A stretch of 60,440 nucleotides of DNA from Candidatus Sulfomarinibacteraceae bacterium (GCA_035466655.1 DATIUS010000052.1:1-60440), one strand, 5' to 3'; counted from the stretch's first letter, positions 23,370 through 54,959 are shown. A program made the numbers and translations. The notes: a model not told the origin generated them from the sequence alone.

Positions 23370-23711
23370 GGTATCGTCGGCCGCCGGACGAACGCCCTGG
23401 TCACGGACCTATTCCGCGGGCTCGGGGACCACGGGTCCGCTGCGTTGCTCGGATCCGAGCTCACACAATCGATCGTCCTCCTCGTGGTCTATCGCGCGGC
23501 GACTTGCGAAGCAGTGACGGGCAGAGGCGCGGCGGAACGAGAAGTCGATCCTCGACAGCGATCCGGACCTATCGATCCGGTGAACCGACCATCGTTCTGT
23601 CGGATGATCGATTCCCGACTATCGGCGACGCCGGGCGGATGCCCAGCCTGTTTCGGACGGTATGCTGGTGCCCTGGCCGCCTTCGCGCCAGGGAGAGCAC
23701 AGGTTCCCAAC

Positions 23712-24470
23712 GTGAGCTTCGATGTCGCCGCCGAGGCCTACGACGACTTCATGGGTCGATACTCGCGCTTGCTGTCTTGTCAACTGGCAGACCTCGCCTC
23801 GGTGCGCCGAGGGCAGCGAGTCATCGACGTCGGTTGCGGCACGGGCGCGCTCACCGGCGAGCTGGTTGCCCGGCTGGGGCCCGACGCAGTGGCGGCCGTC
23901 GATCCGTCCGAGCCGTTTGTTGCCGCGACGCAGGCGCGCCACCCCGGCGTCGACGTTCGACGCGCGGCTGCCGAACAGATTCCGTTCTCGGATGACGCCT
24001 TCGATGCCGCCCTCGCGCAGCTCGTCGTCCACTTCATGAAGGATCCGGTCGCGGGGCTGACCGAGATGGCCCGGGTGACCCGGCGCGGCGGTGTCGTCGC
24101 CGCGTGCGTGTGGGATCACGGCGGGGTCAATGGACCGCTCCACCTCTTCTGGGACGCTGCGCGTGCGCTCGACCCTGATGTCGACGATGAGTCCGACCTC
24201 CCGGGTGCCCGCGCAGGTCACCTGGCCGAGCTGTTCGGCGCCGCCGGGTTGCGTGAGGTTGCCGATACCGCTCTCTCCGTCCGCCTCGAACACCCGACGT
24301 TCGACGCTTGGTGGAAGCCGTTCACGGCTGGCGTTGGTCCCGCCGGCGCCTACCTGGCAAGCCTCGATGCGGACCAGCGCGTTGCGTTGCGCGACGAGTG
24401 CCGGCGAAGGGTGCCCTCGGAGCCGTTCCCGGTTACCGCCGTTGCGTGGGCGGCGCGCGGACTCGCGTAG
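23712..24470 (+). CDS. Class I SAM-dependent methyltransferase
   Basis: Motif I VIDVGCGTGALT, post-I VDPSE, and Methyltransf_11-like FDAALAQLVVHF. GTG at 23712 was chosen. The upstream part of the track ORF crosses the tRNA. Confidence 0.85.
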   Translation: MSFDVAAEAYDDFMGRYSRLLSCQLADLASVRRGQRVIDVGCGTGALTGELVARLGPDAVAAVDPSEPFVAATQARHPGVDVRRAAAEQIPFSDDAFDAALAQLVVHFMKDPVAGLTEMARVTRRGGVVAACVWDHGGVNGPLHLFWDAARALDPDVDDESDLPGARAGHLAELFGAAGLREVADTALSVRLEHPTFDAWWKPFTAGVGPAGAYLASLDADQRVALRDECRRRVPSEPFPVTAVAWAARGLA

Positions 24471-24914: not shown

Positions 24915-25545
24915 GTGCTTCACGCGACAGACCAGGTCTTCGATCTTTCGTTCGAAGCGCTGCCGTCCAGCCATCACTACGTCGGCCCGCTCGGCATCTG
25001 GGAGCCGCCCAGCATGCCGCCCGATTACCTGGCCGGGCCCGGCGACCCATGGGTGACTCGTCTCGATCAGCTCGCAGTTTCAGGACGACGTGCCGCTAGC
25101 CGAGGCCGCCCTGGAAGCACTCGCTGACCGCCCCGTGCGCGTGGTGCTGACGGTCGGGCCGGACCACAATCCCGGCGAGGTGTCGGCTGTCCCTGCCAAT
25201 ACTCGGGTCGAGCGAACGATCTCGCACGCGGCGGTGCTGCGGCACGGTGCGCTCCTCGTGAGCCATGCCGGCCACGGCTCGGTGATGAAGGCGCTCTGGC
25301 ATGGCCGACCCATGGTCCTGGTGCCATGGGGCCGCGACCAGCCGGGAGTGGTCGTGCGTGCCGCGGCACTCGGCGTCGCTGAGGTCGTGCCTCGTCAGGA
25401 GGCCTCCGGCGAGATGCTCGCCGCAGCGGTGGATCGGGCCCTGACGAACCAGCAGATGCGAGCGACCGCCGCGTGGCACGCGGCAAGACTCCAGGCGGCT
25501 GATCCTCCGAGCGTGGCTGCGACACGCATCGAGTCGCTCCTGTGA
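24915..25545 (+). pseudogene. 5-prime-truncated and frameshifted GT1-family (MGT/UDP-glycosyltransferase-like) glycosyltransferase
   Basis: Frame 1 gives HHYVGPLGIWEPP...GDPWV. After a frameshift near 25050-25060 it continues LVSISSQFQDDVPLAEAAL...VSHAGHGSVMKALWHGRPMVLVPWGRDQP (the C-terminal donor-binding domain). The whole N-terminal acceptor domain is absent. Confidence 0.6.
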
Positions 25546-26494: not shown

Positions 26495-27322
26495 TCAATA
26501 CGGTTGGATCAGTGCTCGCCAGAGGAGCGCGATCCCGACCGCGGTCGCCTGGAGGTCGACGAGGATGTACGCGCGGCCGACGGGCTCGATGATAAGGAGG
26601 CCCCGCCCGCTCCGGTGGAGGATCGGGACCAGAGCCTGGATCCCGAGGGCCGTCGCGTTCAGCACGAAGACGACCAGCGTGAGCGCGAGCAGGTTCTCCG
26701 CGCCCGACCCGCCTGCGCCAAGGCCCGGTACGAAGACACTCGACAGCATGGCGAGGCAGATGCCGATGACCGGGAGGGCGAAGGCCTCGCGGGATCGCAA
26801 CATCCCGATGCGGACGCAGATGCTCGACACGATGAGCCAGCCACAGAGCGCGGCCGCTCCGAGCAGCCAGGCGAGCAGGTTCGCCGGTCCGGTGAGACCG
26901 AACGTATCCATCAACGGCTTCAGCGCCAACCACGCGAGGAACAGCGTCCGGTAGTGCTGGAGCCCCGCGACGGTGGCAAGGAGGCGCGGCAGCAGGGCCC
27001 CTTCGGACCCTCCTTCGATCGGCAGGAAGATCAGCTGGATCGCGAGGCCCACGAACGAGAGGAAAGCGACCAGGAACATCGTCAGGACCGTGTCGAAGGC
27101 CTGCGGATCGACCGTCGATTGATTGCGCACGAGCGTGACGAGGAGCACGATCGCGGTGACCGAGATCGCCGCCTGCCCGCTGATCAACGGGATCGTCCGT
27201 CGAGCGACATCAGCCAGGTCCCAGGGCGCGGGCGAAAGATCCACGCGCTCGTGCCGGCCGAGCCAGCTGGCCAGCGGCGTTGTGACTCCGACGATGACGA
27301 TCAGCGCAACGAAGGCAGGCAT
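26495..27322 (-). CDS. Polytopic integral membrane protein, hypothetical
   Basis: About 7 hydrophobic helices. ATG at 27322 (MPAFVALIVIV) is preceded by GGAGGAGCG. The track ORF starts upstream at 27433, so the start is uncertain. Confidence 0.7.
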   Translation of the reverse strand: MPAFVALIVIVGVTTPLASWLGRHERVDLSPAPWDLADVARRTIPLISGQAAISVTAIVLLVTLVRNQSTVDPQAFDTVLTMFLVAFLSFVGLAIQLIFLPIEGGSEGALLPRLLATVAGLQHYRTLFLAWLALKPLMDTFGLTGPANLLAWLLGAAALCGWLIVSSICVRIGMLRSREAFALPVIGICLAMLSSVFVPGLGAGGSGAENLLALTLVVFVLNATALGIQALVPILHRSGRGLLIIEPVGRAYILVDLQATAVGIALLWRALIQPY

Positions 27323-27505
27323 CGCTCCTCCGCGATCGTCGGCCGACCCATTGGCGGGAGGGCCGCGTCGCCGAACATCCTTGCGCGACTCGGACGCCAT
27401 GACAAGATCGTCCGGGGCCGCGCTCGACCCCATAGTGCGACGTTCCTTCGACCATCCGGTCGGCCCGGCGAAAGCCTGGCCCTCGTGCCGGGCGACGCGC
27501 CGTAC

Positions 27506-27985
27506 CTACTCGACGATCACGACTCCGCGCATGCGGGCATCCCAGTGACCCGGAACATGGCAGCCCAGCAGCACCTCGCCCGGCTGATCGAACGTCACGA
27601 TCAGCTCCGCGGTCTCGCCCGGCTCGACGAGCACGGCGATGCCGTGGTCGCGCATCTCCAGGGAGCCGGATCCATCGAAGAACAGGCGCATCTGCTGCTC
27701 GTGGCGCTCCTGTGCTTCGAGGTCGCCCACGGTCAGATCGTGGATCACCGCCCCGGCGTTGTGAACGACGATGCGCACCGTCTCCCCAAGCCGGACGACG
27801 ACGCTGTCCGGCTCGAAGCGCATCGCGTCGGTGGTCGTGAGCCGGACGATGCGTGGCTCGCCGCCGGGACTGCCTGCGGTCCCTCCGCCGATGTCGGTCG
27901 GTGCGGCACCGGCACTCCCGGGGCCGCACCCGCTGATGGCGGCCGCAAGGAGAGCCACGAGCGAGACACCGCTGCTCCCGGCCAT
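27506..27985 (-). CDS. Azurin/plastocyanin-like type-1 copper protein (cupredoxin), lipoprotein
   Basis: Lipobox LLAAAISGC. Candidate type-1 Cu ligands: H in VVHNAGAVIHDL, then CHVPGHWDARM (Cys-x4-His-x4-Met). Confidence 0.85.
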   Translation of the reverse strand: MAGSSGVSLVALLAAAISGCGPGSAGAAPTDIGGGTAGSPGGEPRIVRLTTTDAMRFEPDSVVVRLGETVRIVVHNAGAVIHDLTVGDLEAQERHEQQMRLFFDGSGSLEMRDHGIAVLVEPGETAELIVTFDQPGEVLLGCHVPGHWDARMRGVVIVE

Positions 27986-28008
27986 GTTCGCCGCCCGTGC
28001 CCCCGAGG

Positions 28009-29580
28009 CTACGGGGTGATCTCGAAGGCCAGATGGAACGCGGGCAGGACCTCACCCGGATGGTCGTCCGCGTAGGTGAGCTGCGGGATCCGGAAGTTGT
28101 ACACGCCCTCGACGTCGGTCCCCTTGTAGAGACCGGGGTAGAAGTCGATGTAGTGGATCCCGGGCTCGCCCGTCGCGGGCAGGAAGATCGTGATGTTGCC
28201 CTGGGCGGTCACTGAGCACGAGTACCCGAGCATCGCGTTGTCGTACACGAGCATCAAGATCTTGCCCGTGTCGGTGTCGTCGACGCCCTGGATGTTGATC
28301 TCGATCTCGGTGCCCACGGGTCCCCGGGCAGGCGAAAGCGCCAGCACGGACGGCCGGACGCGGAGCGCCGTGTTCGCGACGATCTTGTCTCCGCTGACCA
28401 GGGATATCTCGTGGCTGCCGCCCTTGTCCTTGGGAACCTCGAAGTCAGCCCGGAAGGCGCCCGAGGCGTCGCTCGTGACCGTGCCGATCTCCCAATCCGC
28501 GTCGGGGCGAGCCTGACCGGTGCCCCCGATGATCCCGGTGTCGACGCCGACCTGGGTCTTCCAGAGGACGTCGAACGTGGTCCTGGCCGGCAGGCCCGCC
28601 CCTTCCAGGACGAACGACGCGCCGACAGTGGCCTCGACGCGGTCGGGCCACACGACCGGGCCCGTTCCGGCCGGTCGCTCGGCTCGATCCGACGACACGA
28701 TCGCCTGCGTCTCGGCAGGCGGCGGCAGGATGGGCTGCCCGTCGGTGACGGTGAAGATCGCGGTGTAGGTCGGGCGGGTCGGATCCGGCGACTGAGCCGG
28801 GTTGAGGTAGGGGAACGTGAATGAGCCGTGGACGATCTTGATCACGTGCTTGCCAGGCCCGCCGGTGGCCGGGATGACCGCCCTGGCGTGCCCTTGGGTC
28901 GTGACCGACGACAGCCAGCCCGTGAAGCGGTTGTCGTAGGTGACGAGCCAGCTGCGCGTCAGGCCCGTCACGCCGACGCCCTTGACGTCGATCGTGATCG
29001 GCGTGCCCGGTGGGCCGCTCGACGGGGTGACGCTGAACTGCATGTCCACCTTGAAGGCTGCCTGGTTGCGAACGACGCCTTCCTCGAGAACTCGGACGTC
29101 GTGGCCGAAGCCAAACCCCTCGGGGACCTCGAACGAGGCGCTGAACGCCCCGCCCGCGTCAGTTCGGGCGGTGGTCAGGGGAACGAGCTCCTCGTCGTAG
29201 GCCCGCCCCTTGAAGTTGGCGGGATCGGCCATGTCAACCTTCCAGCTGCCGCGGAAGGCCTGCCACACCAGCTGCATCTCGACGTTCGGGCTGAAGCCGC
29301 TGCCGGAGGCGGTGACGTTCGTGCCCGGCTGGCCGTGCTTGGGCGCAAGCGCGAACTCACCGACGTATGCGATCGGGGCGGGGGTGGCGGGGGCGGCGGG
29401 GGCGGCGGTCGGCTGGCTTGCGGCGGTCGGCTGATTTGCGGCGCCAGCCGCCGGGGCAGTCGATCCGGGATCCTGGCCCGGCGTGCCGGCTGCCCCGGCG
29501 CCGACAGTCACTAGCCCTGCCCCGACCAGCGCGCCGAGGAGAAGCAGGGTCACACTTGACGGGATACGTGTGCGATCCAT
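28009..29580 (-). CDS. Secreted protein with repeated Ig-like (IPT/TIG-like) domains and an Ala/Pro/Thr-rich linker
   Basis: Signal/anchor VTLLLLGALVGAGLVTVGA. Linker NQPTAASQPTAAPAAPATPAP. Internal duplication: VTPSSGPPGTPITIDVKGVG...VTYDN...SVTTQGHARAVIPATGGPGKHVIKI versus LSPARGPVGTEIEINIQGVD...LVYDN...SVTAQGNITIFLPATGEPGIHYIDF. Confidence 0.8.
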   Translation of the reverse strand: MDRTRIPSSVTLLLLGALVGAGLVTVGAGAAGTPGQDPGSTAPAAGAANQPTAASQPTAAPAAPATPAPIAYVGEFALAPKHGQPGTNVTASGSGFSPNVEMQLVWQAFRGSWKVDMADPANFKGRAYDEELVPLTTARTDAGGAFSASFEVPEGFGFGHDVRVLEEGVVRNQAAFKVDMQFSVTPSSGPPGTPITIDVKGVGVTGLTRSWLVTYDNRFTGWLSSVTTQGHARAVIPATGGPGKHVIKIVHGSFTFPYLNPAQSPDPTRPTYTAIFTVTDGQPILPPPAETQAIVSSDRAERPAGTGPVVWPDRVEATVGASFVLEGAGLPARTTFDVLWKTQVGVDTGIIGGTGQARPDADWEIGTVTSDASGAFRADFEVPKDKGGSHEISLVSGDKIVANTALRVRPSVLALSPARGPVGTEIEINIQGVDDTDTGKILMLVYDNAMLGYSCSVTAQGNITIFLPATGEPGIHYIDFYPGLYKGTDVEGVYNFRIPQLTYADDHPGEVLPAFHLAFEITP

Positions 29581-29629
29581 CGCATCAACCTCGCTTACCT
29601 CGGCTGCTGGCCCTGGGTTTCTTCGCTGA

Positions 29630-30214
29630 CTACTCGGGGATGACCGGCCGCACGTCGTCGGTGACGGTCAACATGGCGAACGGGATCGGAAATTGCTCGA
29701 AGCTGCCCGTTCGGCCGTCAATCCCCTCCGCGGTGAGCGTGTAGGGGACGGTTCCGCTCGGGAAGCCCTCGGGCACGACCCAAGAGGTCGTCCAGAAGCT
29801 TTCGAGCGGGTTGTCACGCGGGTGGGGTCCATAGCGGAGCGCGAGCGTCTCGGTCGGGAGCTTGAGCTCGACCGAGGCCACGGCCGTGTCGTCCAGCCGC
29901 TCACCCGTCGCCCCGTCGATGACCCGGACGCGCCACACGATCTGCTCGTTGTGTGCGAACTTGTTCAACTGGATGCAGATCTTCTGCCCGCGCTCGGCCT
30001 CGGTCAGGTTCTTCGGCCCGAGGACCGTGTCGGTCTGGATCACCAGAGCGGCCGGCGGGACAGGCTCTTCCGTGGCAGCCACGGGCGACGGCGTCGGCGC
30101 CACGGTGGTGGGGCTAGCTGTAGCCCCGCCACCGGGTGGGGTTGCCGAGCCACAGGCCGCCACCAGCACCCCGATCATGAGTGCGGCGAACGTTGTCGGA
30201 ATCCAGCGTGTCAT
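29630..30214 (-). CDS. Lipoprotein, hypothetical (beta-rich/Ig-like)
   Basis: Lipobox GVLVAAC. ATG at 30214 is preceded by GGGAGGACGGTGC. High GC3. Confidence 0.75.
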   Translation of the reverse strand: MTRWIPTTFAALMIGVLVAACGSATPPGGGATASPTTVAPTPSPVAATEEPVPPAALVIQTDTVLGPKNLTEAERGQKICIQLNKFAHNEQIVWRVRVIDGATGERLDDTAVASVELKLPTETLALRYGPHPRDNPLESFWTTSWVVPEGFPSGTVPYTLTAEGIDGRTGSFEQFPIPFAMLTVTDDVRPVIPE

Positions 30215-30240
30215 GCACCGTCCTCCCTAGTCGCGAGGCC

Positions 30241-30852
30241 TCAGCGGCCCAGCAGCCTCTTGCTAAACCTGCCCTGTCGTTCCGCCCGACCGCCCGTCGC
30301 GGCGATAGCGCTCGCCCTGGAGATGCCGAGCACGACGCGAAGCAGCACGAGAACCAGAAGGCCCGACACGGACAGCGCAATGCCGGCCGCGACGGGACCT
30401 GCCCACGCCCCCACGACCGTCAGTCGCGCAGGGGGTGGGGCGAGTGGTGACACGGCATCGGCAACCTCGAGGACGGCCTCGTTGGAGACCGCCGTGCCGT
30501 CGTCGAACGAGGTTCGAGCGACGATCCGATGCAGTCCGTTCCACGTCGGCCGATAGGTGAACCTCGCCGTCCCGCTCGTGTCCGTTTCGCCCGTGCCGAG
30601 GAGGACCGGGCGGACGCCGAGGAACTCAACCGTCGCGCTGAACCTCACCAGGTGGCGGCCGATCGCTCCCGAGGATCGATCGCGGAGCCGGGCTTCAAGC
30701 AGCCATGCACCCTCGGCCATGGGCTGGGCGGACAGGCTGAACTCCGCGTTGGCGTGCGAGGCGGCCGCGGGCAGGACCGGCCCGAGCGCGAGCACGAGCA
30801 GCGCGGCGACGGCGGCCGACAAGACCAGGGTCACCGGTCCGAGGCGCTTCAT
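30241..30852 (-). CDS. Exported protein with a signal peptide, one Ig-like domain and a C-terminal TM anchor
   Basis: MKRLGPVTLVLSAAVAALLVLALGPVLPAAAS. C-terminal TM VAAGIALSVSGLLVLVLLRVVL. The start ATG overlaps the nrfD-like stop as TGATG. Confidence 0.75.
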   Translation of the reverse strand: MKRLGPVTLVLSAAVAALLVLALGPVLPAAASHANAEFSLSAQPMAEGAWLLEARLRDRSSGAIGRHLVRFSATVEFLGVRPVLLGTGETDTSGTARFTYRPTWNGLHRIVARTSFDDGTAVSNEAVLEVADAVSPLAPPPARLTVVGAWAGPVAAGIALSVSGLLVLVLLRVVLGISRASAIAATGGRAERQGRFSKRLLGR

Positions 30853-32234
30853 CAGGCGATACCTTCTGGCGTTGGTGCCGCGAGCGCCGGCCGTGGCGTG
30901 TCGTCGGCGGCCGCTTCGCCCCTCGCTGCGGCTTCGGCGGCCGCGGCTTCCTCGATCTCGTCGATCGCGAGGATCGGGACGAACCGGAACAGGAGCATCA
31001 GCCCGAGCGCGATCCCCGCCGTCGCGGCGGCCGTGATGAGCAGCGGGACCCAGGTGAAGACTGCCGTGCCCCATGGCCCGGCGTCATCGATCAACGGCAG
31101 CGTCGACGACGGCAGCGTGATCAACAGGCGCTTGAGCCACATGCCGACAACCGCGAAGGCCGCGGCCAGTGCGAGGGCCGCGACCCGGCGCCGGGTCGGC
31201 AGCGCGATCAGGGCGATCGGGGCCAGCAGGCCGAACGCAATGAAGCCCCAGAAGGCCGGGGCGTAGGCCCCCTCGAGCAGCGTGACCACGACCGGCAGCT
31301 CCTCTCGGGTGCCCGCGTAGGCCGTGGTGAGGAGCTCGGAGAATGTGAGGTACAGGTACACGAGCCCAAGGGCGGCCATCATCCAGGCCAGCGACAGGAT
31401 CTGGCGCGGCGTGATAAAGGCCTCGAGCCGATAGGCCCGCCGAAACGCGGCCACGACGAGAATGACCAGGCCGACGCCGGAGTACAGCGCCCCGACGACG
31501 AAGTAGGGCCCGAAGATCGTGCTGTGCCAGCCCGGCCGCGTCGTCATCGAGAACGTGTAGGCCAGCACCGAGTGGACTGACACGGCCAGCGGCACGACGA
31601 GAATGGCCACGATCGCGATCCCCCAGCGCAGCCGCTGTCGCTGTTCGTCGAGGCCCTGCCAGCGGATCGCCAGCATGCGGCTCAGGCGGCCCCGGAAGGA
31701 GGCCGTCGGCAGGCGGTCGCGCAGGCGTGCCATGTCCGGGATGAGCGGCAGATAGAGGAAGATCACTGTCGCGGTCAGGTAGATCGTGATGGCCAGGAAG
31801 TCCCACACGATCGGCGAGCTCAGGTTGCCGGAGATCAGGATCAGGAACACCCGCTCCGGCCGGCCGAGATGGACGATCGCGAAGGCGCCGCCGACGATGA
31901 GCGCCACGACCGCCATCGCCTCCGCCATTCGGCTGAGGGGCGCCCCCCAGCGCGCATTCACGAGGCGCAGGACCGCCGACACGACGGCTCCGCCATAGCT
32001 CACCCCGATGAACGCGACGAGGTTCGCCTCGTAGATGCCGTAGAAGGCGCGGTCGGAGTAGCCGGCGACCCACATGCCCTCGGTGAACTGGTAGACGAAC
32101 GCCGCCACGCCGCCGAGGACGATGATGGCCAGCAGGGCAGCGACCGGCCAGAACCAGCGACCGGGGGAGAAGATCGGCCGGAAGGCCGCCGCCTCGAGGG
32201 CGTCGGTGTCGAGTCGGGCAGGGTGTCCGATCAT
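30852..32234 (-). CDS. NrfD/PsrC/DmsC-family polytopic membrane subunit (quinone-interacting anchor of CISM-type complexes)
   Basis: About 10 TM helices with an NrfD-like pattern: long first loop, HLGRPERVF, WDF. ATG at 32234, 10 nt after the nrfC-like stop. Confidence 0.8.
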   Translation of the reverse strand: MIGHPARLDTDALEAAAFRPIFSPGRWFWPVAALLAIIVLGGVAAFVYQFTEGMWVAGYSDRAFYGIYEANLVAFIGVSYGGAVVSAVLRLVNARWGAPLSRMAEAMAVVALIVGGAFAIVHLGRPERVFLILISGNLSSPIVWDFLAITIYLTATVIFLYLPLIPDMARLRDRLPTASFRGRLSRMLAIRWQGLDEQRQRLRWGIAIVAILVVPLAVSVHSVLAYTFSMTTRPGWHSTIFGPYFVVGALYSGVGLVILVVAAFRRAYRLEAFITPRQILSLAWMMAALGLVYLYLTFSELLTTAYAGTREELPVVVTLLEGAYAPAFWGFIAFGLLAPIALIALPTRRRVAALALAAAFAVVGMWLKRLLITLPSSTLPLIDDAGPWGTAVFTWVPLLITAAATAGIALGLMLLFRFVPILAIDEIEEAAAAEAAARGEAAADDTPRPALAAPTPEGIA

Positions 32235-32244
32235 CGGCCTGTCC

Positions 32245-33105
32245 CTAGAACCCCAGATCCTCGCCGTGGCCGAGGATGTACCAGACCCGCGGGCCGGTGT
32301 TGAGCTCTTCGCGGTAGCGGAGCGCGTGGTGTTCCCGAAGGAACGTCGACAGGCGGACCGTCTCGGCGCCGTTGGTTGCCACGTCCGCGTCGAGGTCGCC
32401 GATGTAGATCGCCTCCATCGAGCATGCCGTGACGCACGCCGGCAACTCGCCGCGCGATGTCTGGTGGACGCAGAACGTGCACTTGCCCACGGTCCCCTTG
32501 CGCTGCGGCGCGGGGAACTCCGGAGTCGGAACAACCGGCAACGGTGGGCGGCGGGTCGGCTCAATCCAGTTGAAGTAGCGGGCCTCGTACGGGCAGGCCG
32601 CCATGCACAGCCGGCAGCCGATGCAGCGGTCCTGGTCGACGAGCACGGTCCCGCCGGCCGTCTTGAATGACGCTCCGACTGGGCAGACCCGGAGGCACGG
32701 TGCGTCCTCGCAGTGCATGCACAGGCGCGGCATGAAGTACTCGGTGCCGGCCTGGGTGTGGAGGTTGTAGACCTTCAGCCAGGTCTGTTCGGGCTCGAGA
32801 TAGTGGGTCGTCTGGCAGGCCTCGGTGCACTTCTCGCAGCCGTCGCAGCGGCGAAGGTCGATGACCATCGCCCAACGGCGCGTGGCGCCCTCCTGATCAG
32901 CCGAGGCGTGGGCCGGAGAGACGACGTCGAGGAGATCGACCAGCCCGCTGACGTGCGCCCCGGTCGCTCCGATGGCGGCGAGAGACGCTCCCGCGCCCAC
33001 GGCGGCCAGCGAGCGAAGCAGGGTGCGCCGAGAGACGGCCCTGGGAAGGCCCTGCTCGGCGACGGCGGAGATGGCGGCCGGCGGGGACGTCTCCCGTGTT
33101 TCCAT
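32245..33105 (-). CDS. Tat-exported 4x[Fe-S] ferredoxin subunit of the NrfC/HybA/DmsB family
   Basis: Twin-arginine signal SRRTLLRSLAAVGAGASLAA. Cys clusters CDGCEKCTEAC, CMHCEDAPCLRVCP, CIGCRLCMAACP and CTFC...CVTAC. Confidence 0.88.
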   Translation of the reverse strand: METRETSPPAAISAVAEQGLPRAVSRRTLLRSLAAVGAGASLAAIGATGAHVSGLVDLLDVVSPAHASADQEGATRRWAMVIDLRRCDGCEKCTEACQTTHYLEPEQTWLKVYNLHTQAGTEYFMPRLCMHCEDAPCLRVCPVGASFKTAGGTVLVDQDRCIGCRLCMAACPYEARYFNWIEPTRRPPLPVVPTPEFPAPQRKGTVGKCTFCVHQTSRGELPACVTACSMEAIYIGDLDADVATNGAETVRLSTFLREHHALRYREELNTGPRVWYILGHGEDLGF

Positions 33106-33264: not shown

Positions 33265-33921
33265 GTGGACCGACTGACCGTCCTGCTGGCCGAAGACCAC
33301 GCCGTGGTCCGAGAGGGAATGCGCGAGATGATCGAGCGTGACCCTGGGATCTCGGTAATCGGCGAGGCGGCGGACGGCGCCGCGGCCGTGGCGCTGGCGG
33401 CCGAATTCGCGCCGGATCTCGTGCTCCTCGACCTGGGCCTGCCGGTTCTCAACGGCCTCGAGGCCGCGCGTCGCATCCGGCAGCTGCCGCGACCGCCGCG
33501 GATCCTGATGCTCAGCGCCTACGACGACGACGACTACGTCGTGGCGGCCATCGAGGCCGGCGCGAACGGCTATCTACTCAAGACGGCGCACATGAAGGAC
33601 ATCATCGCGGCGATCCGGTCCGTCGCCCTCGGCGAGGTCGTGCTCGACCCGGCCGTCGCGCGGAAGCTGATCGGCCGGAGCACCCAGCCGGCGACGACGG
33701 GTGACGTGCTGTCGGCTCGCGAGCTCCAGGTCCTCCGGCACGCGGCCCGAGGCGCACGGACGAAGGAGATCGGCAATCTCCTGTCGGTCAGCACGCGGAC
33801 CGTGGAGGCGCACTTCACCAGCATCTTCAACAAGCTCGGCGTCTCGAGTCGAACCGAGGCGATCGTCCACGCCGCGTCGCGGGGCTGGCTGGTCCTCGAG
33901 CGCGACTGGCCCCTGCAATGA
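33265..33921 (+). CDS. NarL/FixJ-family response regulator (REC plus LuxR-type HTH), canonical
   Basis: Acidic pocket LLAEDH, phospho-acceptor LVLLDLGLP, MLSAY, YLLK. HTH: LSARELQVLRHAARGARTKEIGNLLSVSTRTVEAHFTSIFNKLGV. GTG start. Confidence 0.9.
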   Translation: MDRLTVLLAEDHAVVREGMREMIERDPGISVIGEAADGAAAVALAAEFAPDLVLLDLGLPVLNGLEAARRIRQLPRPPRILMLSAYDDDDYVVAAIEAGANGYLLKTAHMKDIIAAIRSVALGEVVLDPAVARKLIGRSTQPATTGDVLSARELQVLRHAARGARTKEIGNLLSVSTRTVEAHFTSIFNKLGVSSRTEAIVHAASRGWLVLERDWPLQ

Positions 33922-35396
33922 CCAGCATCTCGATGCGGCTCGCGCGTCGCCGGCTCGCGTCGCCGCATCGCTGGCTGCGGATCGTGCTGCGGCGCTGGTG
34001 GCCGCCGCTCCGGCGACCGGAGTTCTGGGCGACGCAGGCGCTGGTATTCGTCATTGCAGCTGGTCACGTCGTGCTCGAGATGCTGGAAGTGCCCGGGCTC
34101 AAGCACCTCAACCTGGTCCCGGTCTCACTGTTCCTCGTCCCGGTGATCTATTCGGCGCTCAATTTCGGCCTGCGCGGCGCCGGCCCGACCGCGATCTGGT
34201 GCGGGCTGCTTGCGCTGCCCAACATCGTGTTCTTGCACCCAGGCGCCGATCGCTTCGCCGAGATCTGGCAGGCCGGCCTCGTCGTGGTCGTCGGCCTGGT
34301 CGTCGGACAGCGGATCGACCGGGAGCAGCGAGCGCGGGCGGACGCCCAGCGTCGCGAGCGGGCCAGGCGATCCTCTGAGGAGCGCTACCGGCGGCTGTTC
34401 GAGTCGACCGCGGATCCGATCATGCTGCTGCGGCACGGCGGGACGGTCGAGGAGGCGAACACCGCGGCGGCGATGCTGTTCGGGGTCGCCCGCAGCGATC
34501 TCGCCGGGCGCCGGTTGGAGGACCTCGCCGATCCCGAGCTGGCCATCGCGGTCGAGGCCGCCGACCCGGGCTCAGGCAGCGAGGAGGCCGTCCGCCTCGC
34601 CGACTCGACCGGCCGGATGCGCTGGTTCGAGCCGGTCGTCGCCGACTTCGAGGCCCGTCCCGGCCGGATCCAGGTCGTCCTGCGGGATGTCACCGCGCAG
34701 CAAGAGCGCCAGGCGGGGCTGGAGGCCTACACCCGGCAGACGATGGCTGCCCGCGAAGAGGAGCGCCGCCGGATCGCCCGCGACCTCCATGACGGACCGG
34801 TCCAGGAGCTGGTCCTGCTGTGGCGGGGCCTGGACGAGCTCGGCGACTCGGCTACGGGACAGAATCGCGTGCGGCTCGCGGACGCACGCGCCCTGGCCGA
34901 GCGAATCGCCAACGACCTGCGCCGCATCAGTCGCGACCTGCGACCGTCGCTGCTCGATGATCTCGGCCTCGGGCCGGCGCTGAACGCCGAGTGCGCGGCC
35001 TTCAGCGCATGCTCCGGGATCGCCGCACGCTACGTGGAGACTGGCGCGCCGCGCCGCCTGGCGACCGACATCGAGCTGATGCTGCTGCGCATCGCCCAAG
35101 AGGCGCTCCACAACGTCGACCGGCATGCCCGCGCTCGGACGGCGACGGTACGGCTGACCTTCCGGGCCGGATCGGTCCGTCTCTCGGTAACCGATGACGG
35201 CGTTGGCTTCAGCGGCTCGACGGACAACCGCGCCCTCCTCGCCGAGGGCAAGCTCGGCATCGTCGGGATGCGCGAGCGGGCGCGGCTTGCGGGCGGCGAG
35301 CTGACGCTCCGGAGCGCTCGCAACCGCCGGACCACCGTTTCGGTGCTCGTCCCCGCGTCGCGTCTAGCGGCCGTCCGTCCCGGGGGAGCAGCTTGA
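33918..35396 (+). CDS. Sensor histidine kinase (membrane N-terminus, PAS, HisKA_3, HATPase_c)
   Basis: Four N-terminal TM helices. PAS-like ERYRRLFESTADPIMLL. H-box EEERRRIARDLHDGPVQ. N/G boxes EALHNVDRHA and DDGVGF...GIVGMRERA. ATGA overlap with the response regulator gene. Confidence 0.9.
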   Translation: MTSISMRLARRRLASPHRWLRIVLRRWWPPLRRPEFWATQALVFVIAAGHVVLEMLEVPGLKHLNLVPVSLFLVPVIYSALNFGLRGAGPTAIWCGLLALPNIVFLHPGADRFAEIWQAGLVVVVGLVVGQRIDREQRARADAQRRERARRSSEERYRRLFESTADPIMLLRHGGTVEEANTAAAMLFGVARSDLAGRRLEDLADPELAIAVEAADPGSGSEEAVRLADSTGRMRWFEPVVADFEARPGRIQVVLRDVTAQQERQAGLEAYTRQTMAAREEERRRIARDLHDGPVQELVLLWRGLDELGDSATGQNRVRLADARALAERIANDLRRISRDLRPSLLDDLGLGPALNAECAAFSACSGIAARYVETGAPRRLATDIELMLLRIAQEALHNVDRHARARTATVRLTFRAGSVRLSVTDDGVGFSGSTDNRALLAEGKLGIVGMRERARLAGGELTLRSARNRRTTVSVLVPASRLAAVRPGGAA

Positions 35397-52537: not shown

Positions 52538-54601
52538 CTACGACGTCCCTGGCTCGCCCGCCTGTTCCGGACCGATCCGGAACGGTCGCATCATCTCGTT
52601 GTCCTCGTGCTCGACGATGTGGCAGTGCCAGACGTACTGGCCGGGCACCAGGAACTGGGCGCGGACGCGCGTCACCTGCCCCGGGTAGGCGATGACCGTG
52701 TCCTTGAACCCGGTCTCGTTCGGCTCCGGTGGCGTGACTTCGCCATCGAGCTCGATGGGCACCTTGACCTCGTCGTCCGCATCGAGCACGAGACCCTCAC
52801 GGTTCACGACCTCGAAGACGAGCTCGTGGACATGCATCGGATGCGCGTCGCCAGTGGTGTTGTAGAACTCCCAGATCTCCGTCGCGCCGACGGCCGGGTT
52901 CTCGGTCACCGGATCCATCCACCTGCGCTCGGTCCAGACACCGTCGACGACCGTCCCGAGGAGCGCCTCGACGGGCCCTTCGATCTCCTCGTCTTCCTCG
53001 CTGAAGCCCGTCCCCATCTTCTCGATGAGGGCGAGCGGCCGAATGGCGGTCTCCTGTGGCAGCGGGATGATGGCCGGGAGCCCCAGGAACGCCGGCGGCG
53101 TCGTACGGTCCCGCCCGATCCTGGGCCCGACGCGGAACTGGAGGACCTGGCCGGTCGAATGCTCGTCCGCGGGCTCGAAGTCCTTTCCGGGCACACCGCC
53201 GCCGAACGGCTCGTCCGGCCCGACGTTCGCCAGGATGTATTCCCCGCGAGGCACGTTCGTGAAGTCAACGATGACGTCGGCACGCTCGGCCAGGCCCATC
53301 AGGATCCGGTTGCCGCCCGCGGTCACGTTCACCGGCGCCGAGAGGAAGCCGCCCTCGTTGCCGATCTGCCAGACCTCGACGCCCGGGATCCCGTTGAAGT
53401 CGAGGATGAGGAACCGGGACTGGCAGCCGTTCAGGAACCGGAACCGATAGCGGCGCTGCTCGACGGCCTGGAAGGGCCAGGTGGCGCCGTTGGCAATGAT
53501 GGTGTTGCCGAAGAACTCGGGGTTCCAGATCGGCGAGAACTCCCCGTCCGGGACGTAGCCCCCGGCAATCCCGTCGAACAGGACGCGCATGTCCGGGTAG
53601 AAGAGCGAGCCGTCCGCGTTGAACGAGCGGTCCTGGATCGCGATCGGGATCTCGTGGTAGGTCGTCCCGGCGAGGTCGCCCAGGGCAGGCGCCGGTCCAG
53701 GAAGGGTGGCGGCACCGCCCGTCCGGAGGTCGGTGACCACGTCGCCCGGACCGCCCCGGATGATGAAGAAGCCGGCAGGCCCGGCGTAGACGTTGAGCCG
53801 GGTCATGCCCAGGGTGTGGTCGTGATACCAGATCGTCGAGGCCCGGTTGTGGTTCGGGTACTGGAACGTCGCGAACCCCGGACCCCAGATCTCACCATAG
53901 CTTGACGCGGCCTTGCCGGCGAAGAAGTCGTACCAGGTGCCACGGTCCGCGTACCCGTACGGCAGCTTCGTACCCAGGTCGGGCAGGTACCAGGCCTCCG
54001 CGTAGCCGTCGCTCTCGTCACCGACGCCGACGGCGCCGTGGACGTGGGTCACCATGGGGACGGGTCCCGTGTACCGGCCGGGCGTGGTGCTGAAGGTCGG
54101 CCGCGTGTCGCGGTGGTCCATCCCGCCGGGCGGGTTCGCCCAGTGGAGCGTCGGGTCGACCGGGAGCAGGTGCGGAAGAAAGTCCCCGTTCGCGTCGAGG
54201 AGCTGGTTGATCCACTTGACCCGGACGGGCTTGTGCCACTTCGCCTCGATCGTGAGCGACGGCGCGTTGAAGATCGCCGGCCCGTTCTGAGCGGCCACGG
54301 GGCCGTAGCCCCAGACCGTGGTGGGGGGCAGGCCGGACGGCAGGATCTGCTGCTGGAACTGGCGGACGGCGATCTCGTAGTAGTCGATGTTCTTGCCGCC
54401 GGAAACCCGCACTTTGCCGGCACGCGGCATCGCCGGCGGGATGAGCAACGGCGTTGCGAACTTCGCGATGCTGGCCGGGTCCAGCGAGGGGCCGGGGGCC
54501 ACCGCGCGGACGACCTTCGCGCCGCCGACGAACTGGTACAGGAAGAGGCTGGTGCCGGCTGCGGCCGAACCAACGAGGAACTGTCGTCTGGACAGGGGCA
54601 T
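52538..54601 (-). CDS. Tat-exported three-domain multicopper oxidase (CotA/bilirubin oxidase-like)
   Basis: Twin-arginine signal MPLSRRQFLVGSAAAG. Copper motifs HVHG, WYHDH, HPMHVH and HCHIVEHEDNEMM. ATG at 54601 is preceded by GGAGG. Confidence 0.92.
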   Translation of the reverse strand: MPLSRRQFLVGSAAAGTSLFLYQFVGGAKVVRAVAPGPSLDPASIAKFATPLLIPPAMPRAGKVRVSGGKNIDYYEIAVRQFQQQILPSGLPPTTVWGYGPVAAQNGPAIFNAPSLTIEAKWHKPVRVKWINQLLDANGDFLPHLLPVDPTLHWANPPGGMDHRDTRPTFSTTPGRYTGPVPMVTHVHGAVGVGDESDGYAEAWYLPDLGTKLPYGYADRGTWYDFFAGKAASSYGEIWGPGFATFQYPNHNRASTIWYHDHTLGMTRLNVYAGPAGFFIIRGGPGDVVTDLRTGGAATLPGPAPALGDLAGTTYHEIPIAIQDRSFNADGSLFYPDMRVLFDGIAGGYVPDGEFSPIWNPEFFGNTIIANGATWPFQAVEQRRYRFRFLNGCQSRFLILDFNGIPGVEVWQIGNEGGFLSAPVNVTAGGNRILMGLAERADVIVDFTNVPRGEYILANVGPDEPFGGGVPGKDFEPADEHSTGQVLQFRVGPRIGRDRTTPPAFLGLPAIIPLPQETAIRPLALIEKMGTGFSEEDEEIEGPVEALLGTVVDGVWTERRWMDPVTENPAVGATEIWEFYNTTGDAHPMHVHELVFEVVNREGLVLDADDEVKVPIELDGEVTPPEPNETGFKDTVIAYPGQVTRVRAQFLVPGQYVWHCHIVEHEDNEMMRPFRIGPEQAGEPGTS

Positions 54602-54959
54602 CGGACCAACCTCCACACGTCCATCCACCTTGCGGCGGCATTCCGTCGGGTGGGAGGTGCGGGCGTGACGATGGGCCTGGCGCAGGTCAGGCCGACCGAG
54701 CAGAACGGCCTCCTCGACCGACAAACCGTCCCCCGGTCGGATTCATGCCGAACCTACCGAGGAGGCGAGACCCTCGTCTTCGGCCGAATGGCATCGTTGA
54801 CGCGGGCCGCAGGTCACGGCCGACCATCGCCGGCTGACGGCATCCGCCACGGGGGCCGAGGGGTCGATCGCGTGGCCCGGCGAACGGGTCGTTTGGCACT
54901 TCTCGGGCACGGGCCCCGCTGGCATCAAGGCGGCATGCTCACCGTGCGCGGGTAGGCGC

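What the first reader, a model, noticed from the sequence alone, without database searches (positions are those of the whole stretch)
27506..33105. NrfC/NrfD pair without a catalytic subunit, co-operonic with an azurin-like lipoprotein and three exported Ig-fold proteins: candidate quinol-cupredoxin electron-transfer module
Six tightly spaced minus-strand genes lie between 33105 and 27506, and a seventh, polytopic membrane gene (26495..27322) probably belongs to the same unit:
- a Tat-signal 4x[Fe-S] protein (NrfC/HybA-like)
- an NrfD-like 10-TM subunit
- a signal-plus-C-terminal-TM Ig-like protein, whose start overlaps the previous stop as TGATG
- a lipoprotein
- a 523-aa protein with duplicated IPT-like domains
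- a lipoprotein cupredoxin with His/Cys/His/Met ligands

No molybdopterin, haem or NiFe catalytic partner is encoded in or beside the operon. In established systems (NrfABCD, PsrABC, DmsABC, Hyb, alternative complex III) the NrfC/NrfD pair couples the quinone pool to a periplasmic redox partner. In Chloroflexus, alternative complex III reduces the blue copper protein auracyanin.

Inference: this could be a minimal two-subunit quinol:cupredoxin (or cupredoxin:quinone) oxidoreductase with cell-surface scaffold proteins, regulated by the divergent NarL-type two-component system at 33265..35396. I do not recognise this gene combination as a described system.
Basis: partly seen in the sequence, partly recalled or inferred. 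Interest (0 to 1): 0.8.

Follow-up and report, generated by a model that had tools for sequence, protein, structure and literature searches.

The report
Haem-free quinone–copper protein electron module
A conserved, undescribed gene cluster in soil Chloroflexota-type bacteria pairs a stripped-down relative of respiratory alternative complex III with a blue-copper protein and three antibody-fold surface proteins, probably forming a new route for electrons between the membrane quinone pool and the cell surface.

Summary
Six tightly packed minus-strand genes (33105..27506) encode a Tat-exported 16-Cys NrfC, a 10-segment NrfD, a signal+Ig+C-terminal-TM protein (p203), a lipoprotein (lipo194), a four-Ig-domain protein (IPT523) and a lipoprotein cupredoxin. 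No Mo, haem or NiFe subunit lies in the 60 kb window. The proposed seventh gene (26495..27322) is not conserved and is dropped.

- The NrfD is closest to ActC, the quinol-oxidising subunit of alternative complex III (E 2.5e-54).
- NrfC-NrfD-p203 is a conserved core (p203 in 39 of 43 loci), often beside a NarL-type two-component system.
- A cupredoxin gene lies within 6 kb in 11 of 23 well-flanked loci. It is absent from all 41 loci of the neighbouring cytochrome-c-linked NrfCD clade, and present in 2 of 72 loci without NrfD.
- lipo194+IPT523 is a separate two-gene module found mostly in Alphaproteobacteria MAGs without NrfCD. In one lineage it sits in front of a Rieske/cytochrome b-c complex.

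Best reading: a haem-free "mini-ACIII" linking menaquinol to cupredoxin. Direction and end-user are unproven. The CopI-like cupredoxin keeps a Cu(I)-oxidation reading alive. I found no description in the literature searched. It is a new variant of a known kind.

The parts
32245..33105 (-). NrfC-type periplasmic iron-sulfur subunit (286 aa): own Tat signal (SRRTLL), 16 Cys for four cubane clusters, no TM helix
   Evidence: Pfam Fer4_11 at 3.4e-20. NCBIfam DsrO at 198.1 bits against a cutoff of 200, then TtrB, ArrB, QrcC and NrfC. PDB matches ArrB, PsrB and the ActB C-terminal domain. Cys positions.
30852..32234 (-). NrfD-family integral membrane quinone-interacting subunit (460 aa, 10 hydrophobic segments), ActC-like
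   Evidence: Pfam NrfD at 118.7 bits. Best PDB hits are ACIII ActC: 6f0k_C at 2.5e-54 over residues 24-432, then 6btm_C, 6lod_C and 8k9e_C. The equivalents of ActC His139 and Asp169 are kept as H122 and D145; Asp253 is T227.
30241..30852 (-). p203: signal peptide + Big_1/Big_3_5-like Ig domain + C-terminal TM anchor. Third conserved subunit; no conserved Cys/His
   Evidence: TGATG overlap with the nrfD stop. Follows NrfCD in 39 of 43 clade loci. Homologues hit Big_1/Big_3_5. Alignment. Fused to DOMON or NHL domains in other lineages.
29630..30214 (-). lipo194: lipoprotein with a long Pro/Ala/Thr linker and one Ig-like beta-sandwich. Invariant C80, W141 and near-invariant H131
   Evidence: No Pfam or NCBIfam hit. 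AF2 pLDDT 86.5, with only generic Foldseek hits. Conservation across 84 homologues. Always directly upstream of the IPT523 homologue.
28009..29580 (-). IPT523: exported or anchored protein of four Ig-like domains. Domains 2 and 4 are paralogous (YDN...PATGxPGxH motifs). Near-invariant H160, H245, H390, H476, H507, C455, D216, D447, D506, E510
   Evidence: Pfam TIG at 23.2 bits. AF2 pLDDT 80.7 and pTM 0.76. Foldseek gives only multi-Ig proteins. Alignment and conservation. 271 clusters at E<=1e-30 among 1.84 billion representatives.
27506..27985 (-). Lipoprotein cupredoxin (159 aa). Type-1 ligand set H82/C142/H147/M152, plus a His/Met-containing insertion (H95, M99, M111, H114). CopI-like
   Evidence: Pfam Copper-bind at 28.3 bits, plus Cupredoxin_1 and Cu-oxidase_2. 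NCBIfam CopI at 5.7e-22, below cutoff. PDB matches MCO T1 domains and auracyanin A over the full length at 7.8e-4. Alignment of associated cupredoxins.
33265..33921 (+). Divergently transcribed NarL/GerE-type response regulator
   Evidence: Homologues carry Response_reg + GerE and sit divergently beside NrfC in L002, L003, L004, L088 and others.
33918..35396 (+). Membrane-anchored PAS + HisKA_3 + HATPase_c sensor kinase, overlapping the regulator gene
   Evidence: Pfam PAS, HisKA_3 and HATPase_c. Three N-terminal hydrophobic segments. Homologues at 37-51% identity lie beside the cluster in related loci.

Best explanation
**Proposed complex.** The cluster encodes a haem-free, molybdopterin-free three-subunit membrane complex:
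- an ActC-type NrfD that binds menaquinol/menaquinone at the outer face;
- a Tat-exported NrfC that carries a wire of four [4Fe-4S] clusters;
- a single-pass Ig-domain subunit, p203.

The complex exchanges electrons between the quinone pool and a lipid-anchored type-1 copper protein outside the cytoplasmic membrane.

**Proposed direction.** The most likely direction is quinol to cupredoxin. That would make it a 'mini alternative complex III', in which the cupredoxin plays the part auracyanin plays for ACIII.

**The lipo194/IPT523 pair.** This is a distinct, conserved two-protein surface module inserted between the complex genes and the cupredoxin gene. It is most likely a partner or end-user of the same electron chain, because another lineage places it in front of a Rieske/cytochrome b-c complex instead. 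Its chemistry is unknown.

**Regulation.** The adjacent NarL-type PAS kinase and regulator probably control expression.

**Shown versus inferred.** Family memberships, fold types, gene order and its conservation are shown. Electron transfer, its direction, copper loading and the role of the pair are inferred.
For: 1. NrfD is closest to ACIII ActC. The match runs 188 bits over almost its full length, and the top four PDB hits are all ActC. The His and first Asp of the ActC quinol pocket are retained.
2. NrfC has 16 Cys in four cluster motifs and its own Tat signal, as E. coli NrfC and DsrO do (own knowledge). So it need not hitch-hike on a catalytic subunit.
3. NrfC-NrfD-p203 is a conserved unit across 51 non-redundant loci at 36-64% NrfD identity. 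p203 is present in 39 of 43.
4. A cupredoxin lies within 6 kb in 11 of 23 well-flanked loci, and in 7 of 14 when only NrfD-anchored loci are counted. The figure is 0 of 41 loci (315 kb) in the sister NrfCD clade that is followed by cytochromes c. It is 2 of 72 loci (1.09 Mb) without NrfD, and one of those two is the truncated orthologue L006.
5. Minimal versions exist that contain only the TCS, a cupredoxin, NrfC, NrfD and p203 (L100, L101, L112).
6. L087 has four tandem cupredoxins and a second NrfC-NrfD-Big_1-cupredoxin set.
7. In L132, the p203 homologue carries a DOMON domain at 45.5 bits against a cutoff of 32.7. DOMON is a known extracytoplasmic electron-transfer domain, which places this subunit on an electron path.
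8. The lipo/IPT pair is co-operonic either with NrfCD-p203 or with Rieske + cytochrome b-c, 17 nt apart (L004/L005). This is non-homologous displacement between two types of quinol-oxidising module.
9. The cupredoxin aligns weakly but end to end with auracyanin A.
Against: - There is no experimental or expression data.
- About half of the well-flanked loci have no cupredoxin gene nearby, though divergent ones may be missed.
- The third ActC quinol-site residue (Asp253) is Thr here. The His is Asp in several clade members.
- The cupredoxin's best annotated relative is CopI, a copper-tolerance protein, not a respiratory carrier.
- No terminal oxidase or reductase that would use reduced cupredoxin is adjacent in any locus inspected.
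- Direct [4Fe-4S]-to-type-1-copper transfer from an NrfC-type subunit has no precedent that I know of (own knowledge).
- In Alphaproteobacteria the lipo/IPT pair occurs without any conserved redox neighbour.
Confidence: 0.5

Rival explanations
1. Reverse direction: a copper (or other metal) detoxifying oxidase. The CopI-like cupredoxin would bind Cu(I) in its His/Met loop and oxidise it at the type-1 site. NrfC-NrfD would then be the oxygen-independent electron sink into the quinone pool, possibly pulled by proton motive force. The Cys/His-bearing Ig proteins would bind or hand over the metal.
For: - The best NCBIfam hit of the cupredoxin is CopI (5.7e-22).
- Window-type cupredoxins next to this NrfCD clade share an insertion with a conserved Q..H and Met/His-rich acidic loop. 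The insertion is extreme in L112.
- Published CopI model: Cu(I) is bound in the His/Met region and then oxidised at the cupredoxin centre, with a role under low oxygen. The term 'electron acceptor' does not occur in that paper (PMC13308877).
- The C-terminal ligand loop is most similar to multicopper oxidases.
- lipo194 and IPT523 carry invariant Cys/His.
Against: - The CopI score is far below the family cutoff (78 against 280 bits).
- No copper-homeostasis genes (CopA, CopZ, CsoR, CopC/D) appear in any inspected neighbourhood.
- The regulators are NarL-type PAS/GAF kinases. They are not the OmpR-type CopRS sensors.
- Other associated cupredoxins lack the insertion.
- Cu(I) to menaquinone is thermodynamically uphill (own knowledge).
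Confidence: 0.2
2. The lipo194/IPT523 heterodimer is itself the missing catalytic unit. It would be a new extracytoplasmic metallo-redox enzyme (terminal reductase or substrate oxidase). Depending on lineage, it would be fed through cupredoxin by NrfCD-p203, by a Rieske/cytochrome b-c complex, or by soluble carriers.
For: - The pair is the most widely conserved element: about 80 species-level loci in several phyla.
- It is co-operonic with two unrelated types of quinol-oxidising module.
- Five His, one Cys and several Asp/Glu in IPT523 are near-invariant, as are Cys80 and His131 in lipo194, at only 40-80% overall identity.
- The conserved loops are modelled with low confidence, as unliganded metal sites often are (the comparison is own knowledge).
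- A NosD-like beta-helix protein follows the pair in L086.
Against: - There is no known cofactor motif.
- Both proteins are plain Ig-like sandwiches with only generic structural neighbours.
- In Alphaproteobacteria there is no conserved redox neighbour at all.
- Several conserved His sit in motifs (PGxHxI) that could be structural.
- Most NrfD-anchored loci of the clade lack the pair (2 of 14).
Confidence: 0.15
3. Ordinary NrfCD whose catalytic partner (molybdoenzyme, multihaem cytochrome) is encoded elsewhere in the genome. The cupredoxin and Ig-like genes would be merely co-located envelope proteins with no electron exchange.
For: - NrfC scores just under the DsrO cutoff (198.1 against 200).
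- The rest of the genome could not be inspected.
- Half of the loci lack a nearby cupredoxin.
Against: - Gene order NrfC-NrfD-p203-(lipo-IPT)-cupredoxin, with overlapping or very short gaps, is kept down to 45% identity.
- Cupredoxin enrichment is specific to this clade.
- NrfD matches ActC (188 bits, PDB) much better than the DsrP model (86.5 bits, far below its cutoff of 350).
- No dsrMKJ, nrfA or Mo subunit appears in any of the more than 50 loci.
Confidence: 0.1

Closest known systems
Alternative complex III (ActABCDEF) with auracyanin as acceptor (Chloroflexus/Roseiflexus; Rhodothermus, Flavobacterium structures 6f0k, 6btm, 6lod, 8k9e)
   Same: - The NrfD here is most similar to ActC, the quinol-oxidising 10-helix subunit. 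The pocket His and first Asp are kept.
- The iron-sulfur subunit is homologous to the C-terminal half of ActB.
- The partner is a membrane-anchored blue copper protein. The phylum context is Chloroflexota.
   Different: - There is no pentahaem ActA and no monohaem ActE.
- There is no ActD, no second NrfD-type subunit ActF, and no molybdopterin-like ActB1 domain.
- All four clusters have four Cys, whereas R. marinus ACIII is described with a [3Fe-4S] FeS1 (own knowledge).
- An Ig+TM subunit (p203) is present instead.
- ActC Asp253 is not conserved.
NrfCD-type 'dimeric redox module' of NrfABCD, DsrMKJOP (DsrOP), QrcABCD (QrcCD), HmcBC, PsrBC/TtrBC
   Same: It has the same two-protein architecture: a Tat-exported four-cluster ferredoxin docked on a cofactor-less NrfD membrane subunit. 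NrfC scores 198 bits on the DsrO model.
   Different: All described members pass electrons to or from haem c or Mo/W subunits. The 2021 catalogue of NrfD complexes contains no mention of copper (PMC8076601). Here no such subunit is nearby, and cupredoxins are the enriched neighbours.
CopI, periplasmic copper-tolerance cupredoxin (Rubrivivax gelatinosus, Pseudomonas, Vibrio)
   Same: It is the best NCBIfam match of the window cupredoxin. Both have a type-1-like ligand set and an internal His/Met-containing insertion after the first His ligand (PMC13308877).
   Different: - The score is far below the CopI cutoff (78 against 280 bits).
- The lipoprotein anchor is not a described CopI feature (own knowledge).
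- The NrfCD neighbourhood is not a described CopI context. No NrfD or NrfC hit came up in my paper searches.
- The regulators belong to a different family.
FtrABCD iron uptake system (cupredoxin FtrB + membrane polyferredoxin FtrD)
   Same: It is an analogy only: an extracytoplasmic cupredoxin is genetically coupled to a membrane-associated iron-sulfur electron sink (PMC11966278, abstract; the details are own knowledge).
   Different: There is no Ftr1-type permease and no P19 protein. FtrD is a NapH-like polyferredoxin. It is not an NrfC/NrfD pair.
Rieske/cytochrome b (bc-type) complexes
   Same: They are functionally analogous quinol:periplasmic-acceptor oxidoreductases. In L004/L005 such a complex occupies the place next to the lipo/IPT pair that NrfCD-p203 occupies in the window.
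   Different: There is no sequence relationship. Cofactors are haems b/c and a 2Fe-2S centre.

Membership tests
NrfD / PsrC family (PF03916) | Polytopic 8-10 helix membrane protein matching the NrfD profile above the gathering score | tested here: met
   118.7 bits against a cutoff of 25.8. 10 hydrophobic segments.
Alternative complex III | ActC-like quinol subunit with the conserved pocket residues His139, Asp169 and Asp253 (R. marinus numbering) | tested here: inconclusive
   Best PDB hits are ActC. His maps to H122 and Asp169 to D145, both kept. Asp253 maps to T227. The His is Asp in 4 of 6 clade members aligned.
Alternative complex III | Presence of the other defining subunits: pentahaem ActA, ActB with N-terminal molybdopterin-like domain, ActD, monohaem ActE, second NrfD-like ActF | tested here: not met
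   The window has a single NrfD. NrfC is 286 aa with no B1 domain. The other cluster proteins gave no haem-related Pfam hit, and no cytochrome gene lies nearby. The same holds in related loci.
NrfC / four-cluster ferredoxin (CISM beta-subunit type) | Four Cys groups for four cubane clusters; periplasmic location | tested here: met
   16 Cys at positions 87-97, 129-141, 161-171 and 209-228. Fer4_11 at 72.5 bits. Twin-arginine motif SRRTLL.
DsrO (NF045797) of DsrMKJOP | Score at or above the curated cutoff, with dsrMKJP context | tested here: not met
   198.1 bits against a cutoff of 200. The NrfD scores only 86.5 against 350 on the DsrP model. No dsrM/K/J is in the window or in related loci.
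Type-1 (blue) copper protein / cupredoxin | Cupredoxin profile match plus His...Cys-x4-His-x4-Met ligand pattern | tested here: met
   Copper-bind at 28.3 bits against a cutoff of 21.2. H82, C142, H147 and M152. Copper binding itself cannot be tested here.
CopI (NF051440 / NF047895) | Score above the curated cutoff; internal His/Met-rich region | tested here: not met
   78.4 bits against 280, and 44.7 against 200. An insertion with 2 His and 2 Met is present at the corresponding place.
IPT/TIG Ig-like fold | Ig-like beta-sandwich domains | tested here: met
   TIG at 23.2 bits against a cutoff of 20.9. The AF2 model shows four all-beta domains. Foldseek hits are multi-Ig proteins only.
Histidine-brace copper proteins (YcnI/CopC/LPMO-like) for p203 | Invariant N-terminal His of the mature protein | tested here: not met
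   The window protein may start with His after cleavage, but homologues have Asp, Glu or Ala there.

The most novel reading that the evidence does not exclude
The lipo194/IPT523 pair is a previously unrecognised extracytoplasmic metallo-redox enzyme built only from Ig-like domains, with its active site formed by the invariant His/Cys/Asp residues. Different lineages would wire it to the quinone pool through interchangeable modules: a haem-free NrfC-NrfD-p203-cupredoxin chain here, a Rieske/cytochrome b-c complex elsewhere. The window would then hold a complete new respiratory branch whose substrate is unknown.
Probability: 0.15. Interest if true: 0.9.

Novelty: new variant of a known kind. Interest (0 to 1): 0.66.

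Why it matters
Every characterised NrfD-family complex hands electrons to haem or molybdenum/tungsten subunits.

A conserved version with only iron-sulfur clusters and a copper protein would be a new, very small way of connecting the quinone pool to the outside of the membrane. It would also give a simple system for studying how ActC-type subunits couple quinol chemistry to proton movement.

It may fill one of two gaps:
- how abundant soil and freshwater Chloroflexota of the Limnocylindria type reduce their cupredoxins;
- if it runs in reverse, where the electrons of CopI-type copper detoxification go when oxygen is scarce.

It also flags a widespread two-protein surface module (about 100 species-level hits; 271 sequence clusters at E<=1e-30) with no annotation and a striking set of invariant His/Cys residues.

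Tried and rejected
- **GTDB scan with the single IPT523 protein.** It found nothing. It worked only with an alignment.
- **Homologue search with p203.** It gave only 13 close hits, so the breadth of p203 was judged from loci instead.
- **Foldseek of both AF2 models.** It gave only generic Ig-fold neighbours: complement MG domains, S-layer proteins and the sulfite oxidase dimerisation domain. No functional lead came from it.
- **Profile search of IPT523 against PDB sequences.** Nothing.
- **Histidine-brace idea for p203** (mature N-terminal His, Ig domain, C-terminal TM, as in YcnI). Rejected because the His is not conserved.
- **Apparent covariation.** IPT-like proteins without a lipo partner seemed to have lost Cys455. 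I rejected this on reading L132. The protein has its domain halves in swapped order and keeps the YDNAFLGFAC motif, so the 'loss' was a misalignment.
- **Seventh membrane gene.** Rejected as a component: no homologue in any locus. The same-length membrane protein at the same place in L002 is unrelated.
- **Conserved neighbours of the pair in Alphaproteobacteria.** Only generic genes turned up: ABC ATPase, luciferase-like, RecQ, a Bug-type binding protein, SDR and CoA-transferase.
- **Literature searches** for NrfD with cupredoxin, blue copper, Limnocylindria or ACIII-like. No description of this system was found.
- **Model coordinates.** They were not available to me, so I could not check whether the invariant residues cluster in space.

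Full report
**1. What is in the sequence**

The window has about 70% G+C. Between 33105 and 27506 there are six minus-strand genes.

- NrfC-like protein, 32245..33105, 286 aa. It matches the four-cluster ferredoxin profiles (Fer4_11 at 3.4e-20). Among NCBIfam models it is closest to DsrO (198.1 bits, cutoff 200), then TtrB, ArrB, QrcC and NrfC. It has an SRRTLL twin-arginine motif, 16 cysteines in four motif groups and no hydrophobic segment.
- NrfD protein, 30852..32234, 460 aa. It starts 10 nt after the NrfC stop. Pfam NrfD scores 118.7 bits. It has ten hydrophobic segments.
- p203, 30241..30852. Its ATG overlaps the NrfD stop as TGATG. It has a signal peptide and a C-terminal membrane helix. 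Homologues hit Big_1 and Big_3_5 weakly.
- lipo194, 29630..30214, a lipoprotein.
- IPT523, 28009..29580.
- Cupredoxin, 27506..27985, a lipoprotein. Pfam Copper-bind scores 28.3 bits. The candidate ligands are H82, C142, H147 and M152.

The last three genes follow with gaps of 26, 49 and 23 nt. No terminator-like site lies between genes; the single minus-strand hit, inside the p203 gene, is within what shuffles give.

Pfam scans of 40 long ORFs of the window found no molybdopterin, haem or NiFe subunit.

The one exception is the proposed seventh gene (26495..27322). It has no homologue in any related locus, including L006, whose IPT523 is 80% identical. It is also unrelated to the equally long membrane protein at the same place in L002.

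**2. What the parts resemble**

*NrfD.* Against all PDB sequences, the NrfD matches only alternative complex III subunits. The four best hits are ActC of Rhodothermus (6f0k_C, 2.5e-54, residues 24-432), Flavobacterium, Roseiflexus and Chloroflexus. ActF follows weakly. PsrC does not appear at E<=0.01.

Three charged residues are assigned to the ActC quinol pocket (PMC5928083):
- His139 corresponds to H122;
- Asp169 corresponds to D145, which is invariant in the clade;
- Asp253 corresponds to T227.

The His is Asp in several clade members.

*NrfC.* It matches ArrB, PsrB and the C-terminal half of ActB.

*Cupredoxin.* Its best NCBIfam match is CopI (5.7e-22, far below cutoff). In the PDB it matches type-1 domains of multicopper oxidases and, end to end but weakly, auracyanin A.

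*IPT523.* AlphaFold2 gives four Ig-like domains (pLDDT 80.7, pTM 0.76).

*lipo194.* AlphaFold2 gives one Ig-like sandwich behind a long linker (pLDDT 86.5).

Foldseek finds only generic Ig-fold neighbours for both models.

**3. Comparative genomics**

*Source and relatives.* IPT523 has hundreds of unannotated homologues. NCBI labels the source as a Candidatus Sulfomarinibacteraceae MAG, which belongs to Acidobacteriota. The closest loci are labelled Candidatus Limnocylindrales, Chloroflexota. The contig may be mis-binned.

*The lipo/IPT pair.* A GTDB scan returned 98 species-level hits, of which 80 loci were kept. In almost all of them a lipo194 homologue lies directly upstream of the IPT523 homologue. 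Most are Alphaproteobacteria MAGs (Stellaceae, Xanthobacteraceae, Micropepsaceae, Beijerinckiaceae). In those there is no NrfCD and no conserved neighbour.

*The full cluster.* NrfC-NrfD-p203 plus a NarL-type kinase/regulator accompanies the pair only in a Chloroflexota subset, plus one MAG labelled Firmicutes (L019). These are L002, L003, L012, L016, L017, L019, L020, L023, L024, L027, L079, L087, L088 and L169.

*A displaced module.* In L004/L005 the pair and the same type of regulator are followed, 17 nt later, by a Rieske protein and a cytochrome b-c fusion instead.

*The converse scan.* I scanned metagenome contigs with an NrfD alignment. The relatives fall into two groups.
- The closer clade has an NrfC scoring at least 200 bits and is followed by p203 in 39 of 43 loci.
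- The more distant clade has an NrfC scoring about 120 bits and is followed by c-type cytochromes.

*Cupredoxin enrichment.* In the closer clade a cupredoxin gene lies within 6 kb in 11 of 23 well-flanked non-redundant loci, and in 7 of 14 if only NrfD-anchored loci are counted. The figure is 0 of 41 in the cytochrome clade. It is 2 of 72 in loci without NrfD, and one of those two is the truncated orthologue L006.

*Other frequencies.* The lipo/IPT pair is present in only 2 of the 14 NrfD-anchored loci. The two-component system lies within 3.5 kb upstream in 17 of 30 loci.

*Variants.*
- Minimal loci hold only regulator genes, a cupredoxin, NrfC, NrfD and p203: L100, L101 and L112.
- L087 carries four tandem cupredoxins and a second NrfC-NrfD-Big_1-cupredoxin set.
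- p203 is fused to NHL propeller repeats in L102 and to a DOMON domain in L132.

**4. Interpretation**

The conserved core is a three-subunit complex: NrfC, an ActC-type NrfD, and p203. Its statistically associated partner is a cupredoxin.

ActC is the quinol-oxidising subunit of a complex whose acceptor in Chloroflexus relatives is the blue copper protein auracyanin. The simplest model is therefore a haem-free mini-ACIII:

menaquinol -> NrfD site -> four [4Fe-4S] clusters of NrfC -> type-1 copper

p203 has no conserved Cys or His. It is probably a structural membrane-anchored subunit. Its fusions to DOMON show that the position it occupies can carry an extra redox domain.

The lipo/IPT pair is a separate module. 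It associates with two unrelated kinds of quinol-oxidising module, which argues that it uses or serves that electron chain. It also has near-invariant H160, H245, H390, H476, H507, C455, D216, D447, D506 and E510 in IPT523, and C80, H131 and W141 in lipo194. These would suit a metal site. There is no direct evidence for a cofactor, and in Alphaproteobacteria the pair stands alone.

**5. Rival readings**

The cupredoxins nearest to the window share an insertion with a conserved Q..H and a Met/His-containing acidic loop. This resembles CopI. For CopI, a model of Cu(I) capture followed by oxidation at the cupredoxin centre under low oxygen has been proposed, and the term 'electron acceptor' does not occur in that paper (PMC13308877).

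NrfCD could be that electron sink, which would reverse the direction of flow. Against this:
- the CopI score is low;
- no copper-homeostasis genes are nearby;
- the regulators are of the PAS/GAF NarL type;
- Cu(I) to menaquinone is an uphill step.

A hidden conventional catalytic subunit elsewhere in the genome cannot be excluded. It is made unlikely by the conserved tight operon and by the clade-specific cupredoxin enrichment.

**6. Novelty**

The 2021 catalogue of NrfD-containing complexes contains no mention of copper (PMC8076601). Full-text searches for the combination found nothing.

The parts belong to known families, but the assembly fails the membership tests for ACIII, DsrMKJOP and CopI. 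I class it as a new variant of a known kind. The lipo/IPT pair is an unannotated family of unknown function inside it: 271 clusters at E<=1e-30 among 1.84 billion representatives.

All mechanistic statements are inferences from homology and neighbourhood. None is tested.

Noticed in passing
window 26495..27433 (-): A polytopic membrane ORF (6 hydrophobic segments, no Pfam/NCBIfam hit) lies downstream of the cupredoxin. It is not conserved in any related locus, including L006. L002 has an unrelated 275-aa membrane protein at the same relative position.
   Followed up: yes
window, whole contig: NCBI labels the source MAG Candidatus Sulfomarinibacteraceae (Acidobacteriota). The nearest homologous loci (80% and 76% identity for IPT523 and lipo194) are labelled Candidatus Limnocylindrales (Chloroflexota). 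The cause could be mis-binning or lateral transfer.
   Followed up: partly
window 52538..54742 (-): A 734-aa ORF with a C-terminal multicopper-oxidase domain (Cu-oxidase_2, 1.9e-19) lies about 20 kb from the cluster. It is a second copper redox protein on the same contig.
   Followed up: no
window 23700..24470 (+); L002 14836..15624; L170 2328..3095: A UbiE/COQ5-family-like methyltransferase lies within a few kb of the lipo/IPT pair in three loci that share only about 45-50% IPT523 identity. In L170 it lies about 190 nt after the IPT gene. It may be chance, or a link to menaquinone methylation.
   Followed up: no
L004 9367..14052 and L005 2521..7206: The lipo/IPT pair, with the same divergent NarL-type regulator, is followed after 17 nt by a Rieske protein and a 664-aa cytochrome b/cytochrome c fusion, then by tatA/tatC. 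There is no NrfCD.
   Followed up: partly
L087 1650..15194: The locus holds NrfC-NrfD-p203-lipo-IPT, then four tandem cupredoxin genes (some with an N-terminal TM anchor and long Cys...His loops), then a second NrfC-NrfD-Big_1 protein-cupredoxin set. The adjacent kinase has GAF domains.
   Followed up: partly
L132 9164..13439 (also L114): The p203 homologue has an N-terminal DOMON domain (45.5 bits). Further downstream lies an IPT523-like protein with its two halves in swapped order and a C-terminal TM anchor. No lipo194 homologue is present.
   Followed up: partly
L102 9326..12729 (similar long p203 ORFs in L096, L097, L105, L106): In L102, p203 is fused to a C-terminal NHL-repeat beta-propeller and is followed by a second NHL-repeat protein. 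These take the place of the lipo/IPT pair.
   Followed up: partly
L086 7474..10497: The lipo/IPT pair is followed by a 329-aa NosD-like right-handed beta-helix protein. Upstream, the two-component genes are co-directional, and there is a large MauE/DoxX-thioredoxin fusion.
   Followed up: no
L100 5159..5716: The cupredoxin upstream of NrfC has a C-x3-C-x6-H-x3-M pattern (FCALPCDKWAMAHNGFM) instead of a plain type-1 loop. This is reminiscent of a binuclear CuA-like site.
   Followed up: no
window 25090..25545 (+): A 151-aa ORF matches only the C-terminal domain of GT1/GT28-type glycosyltransferases. It is possibly a truncated gene.
   Followed up: no
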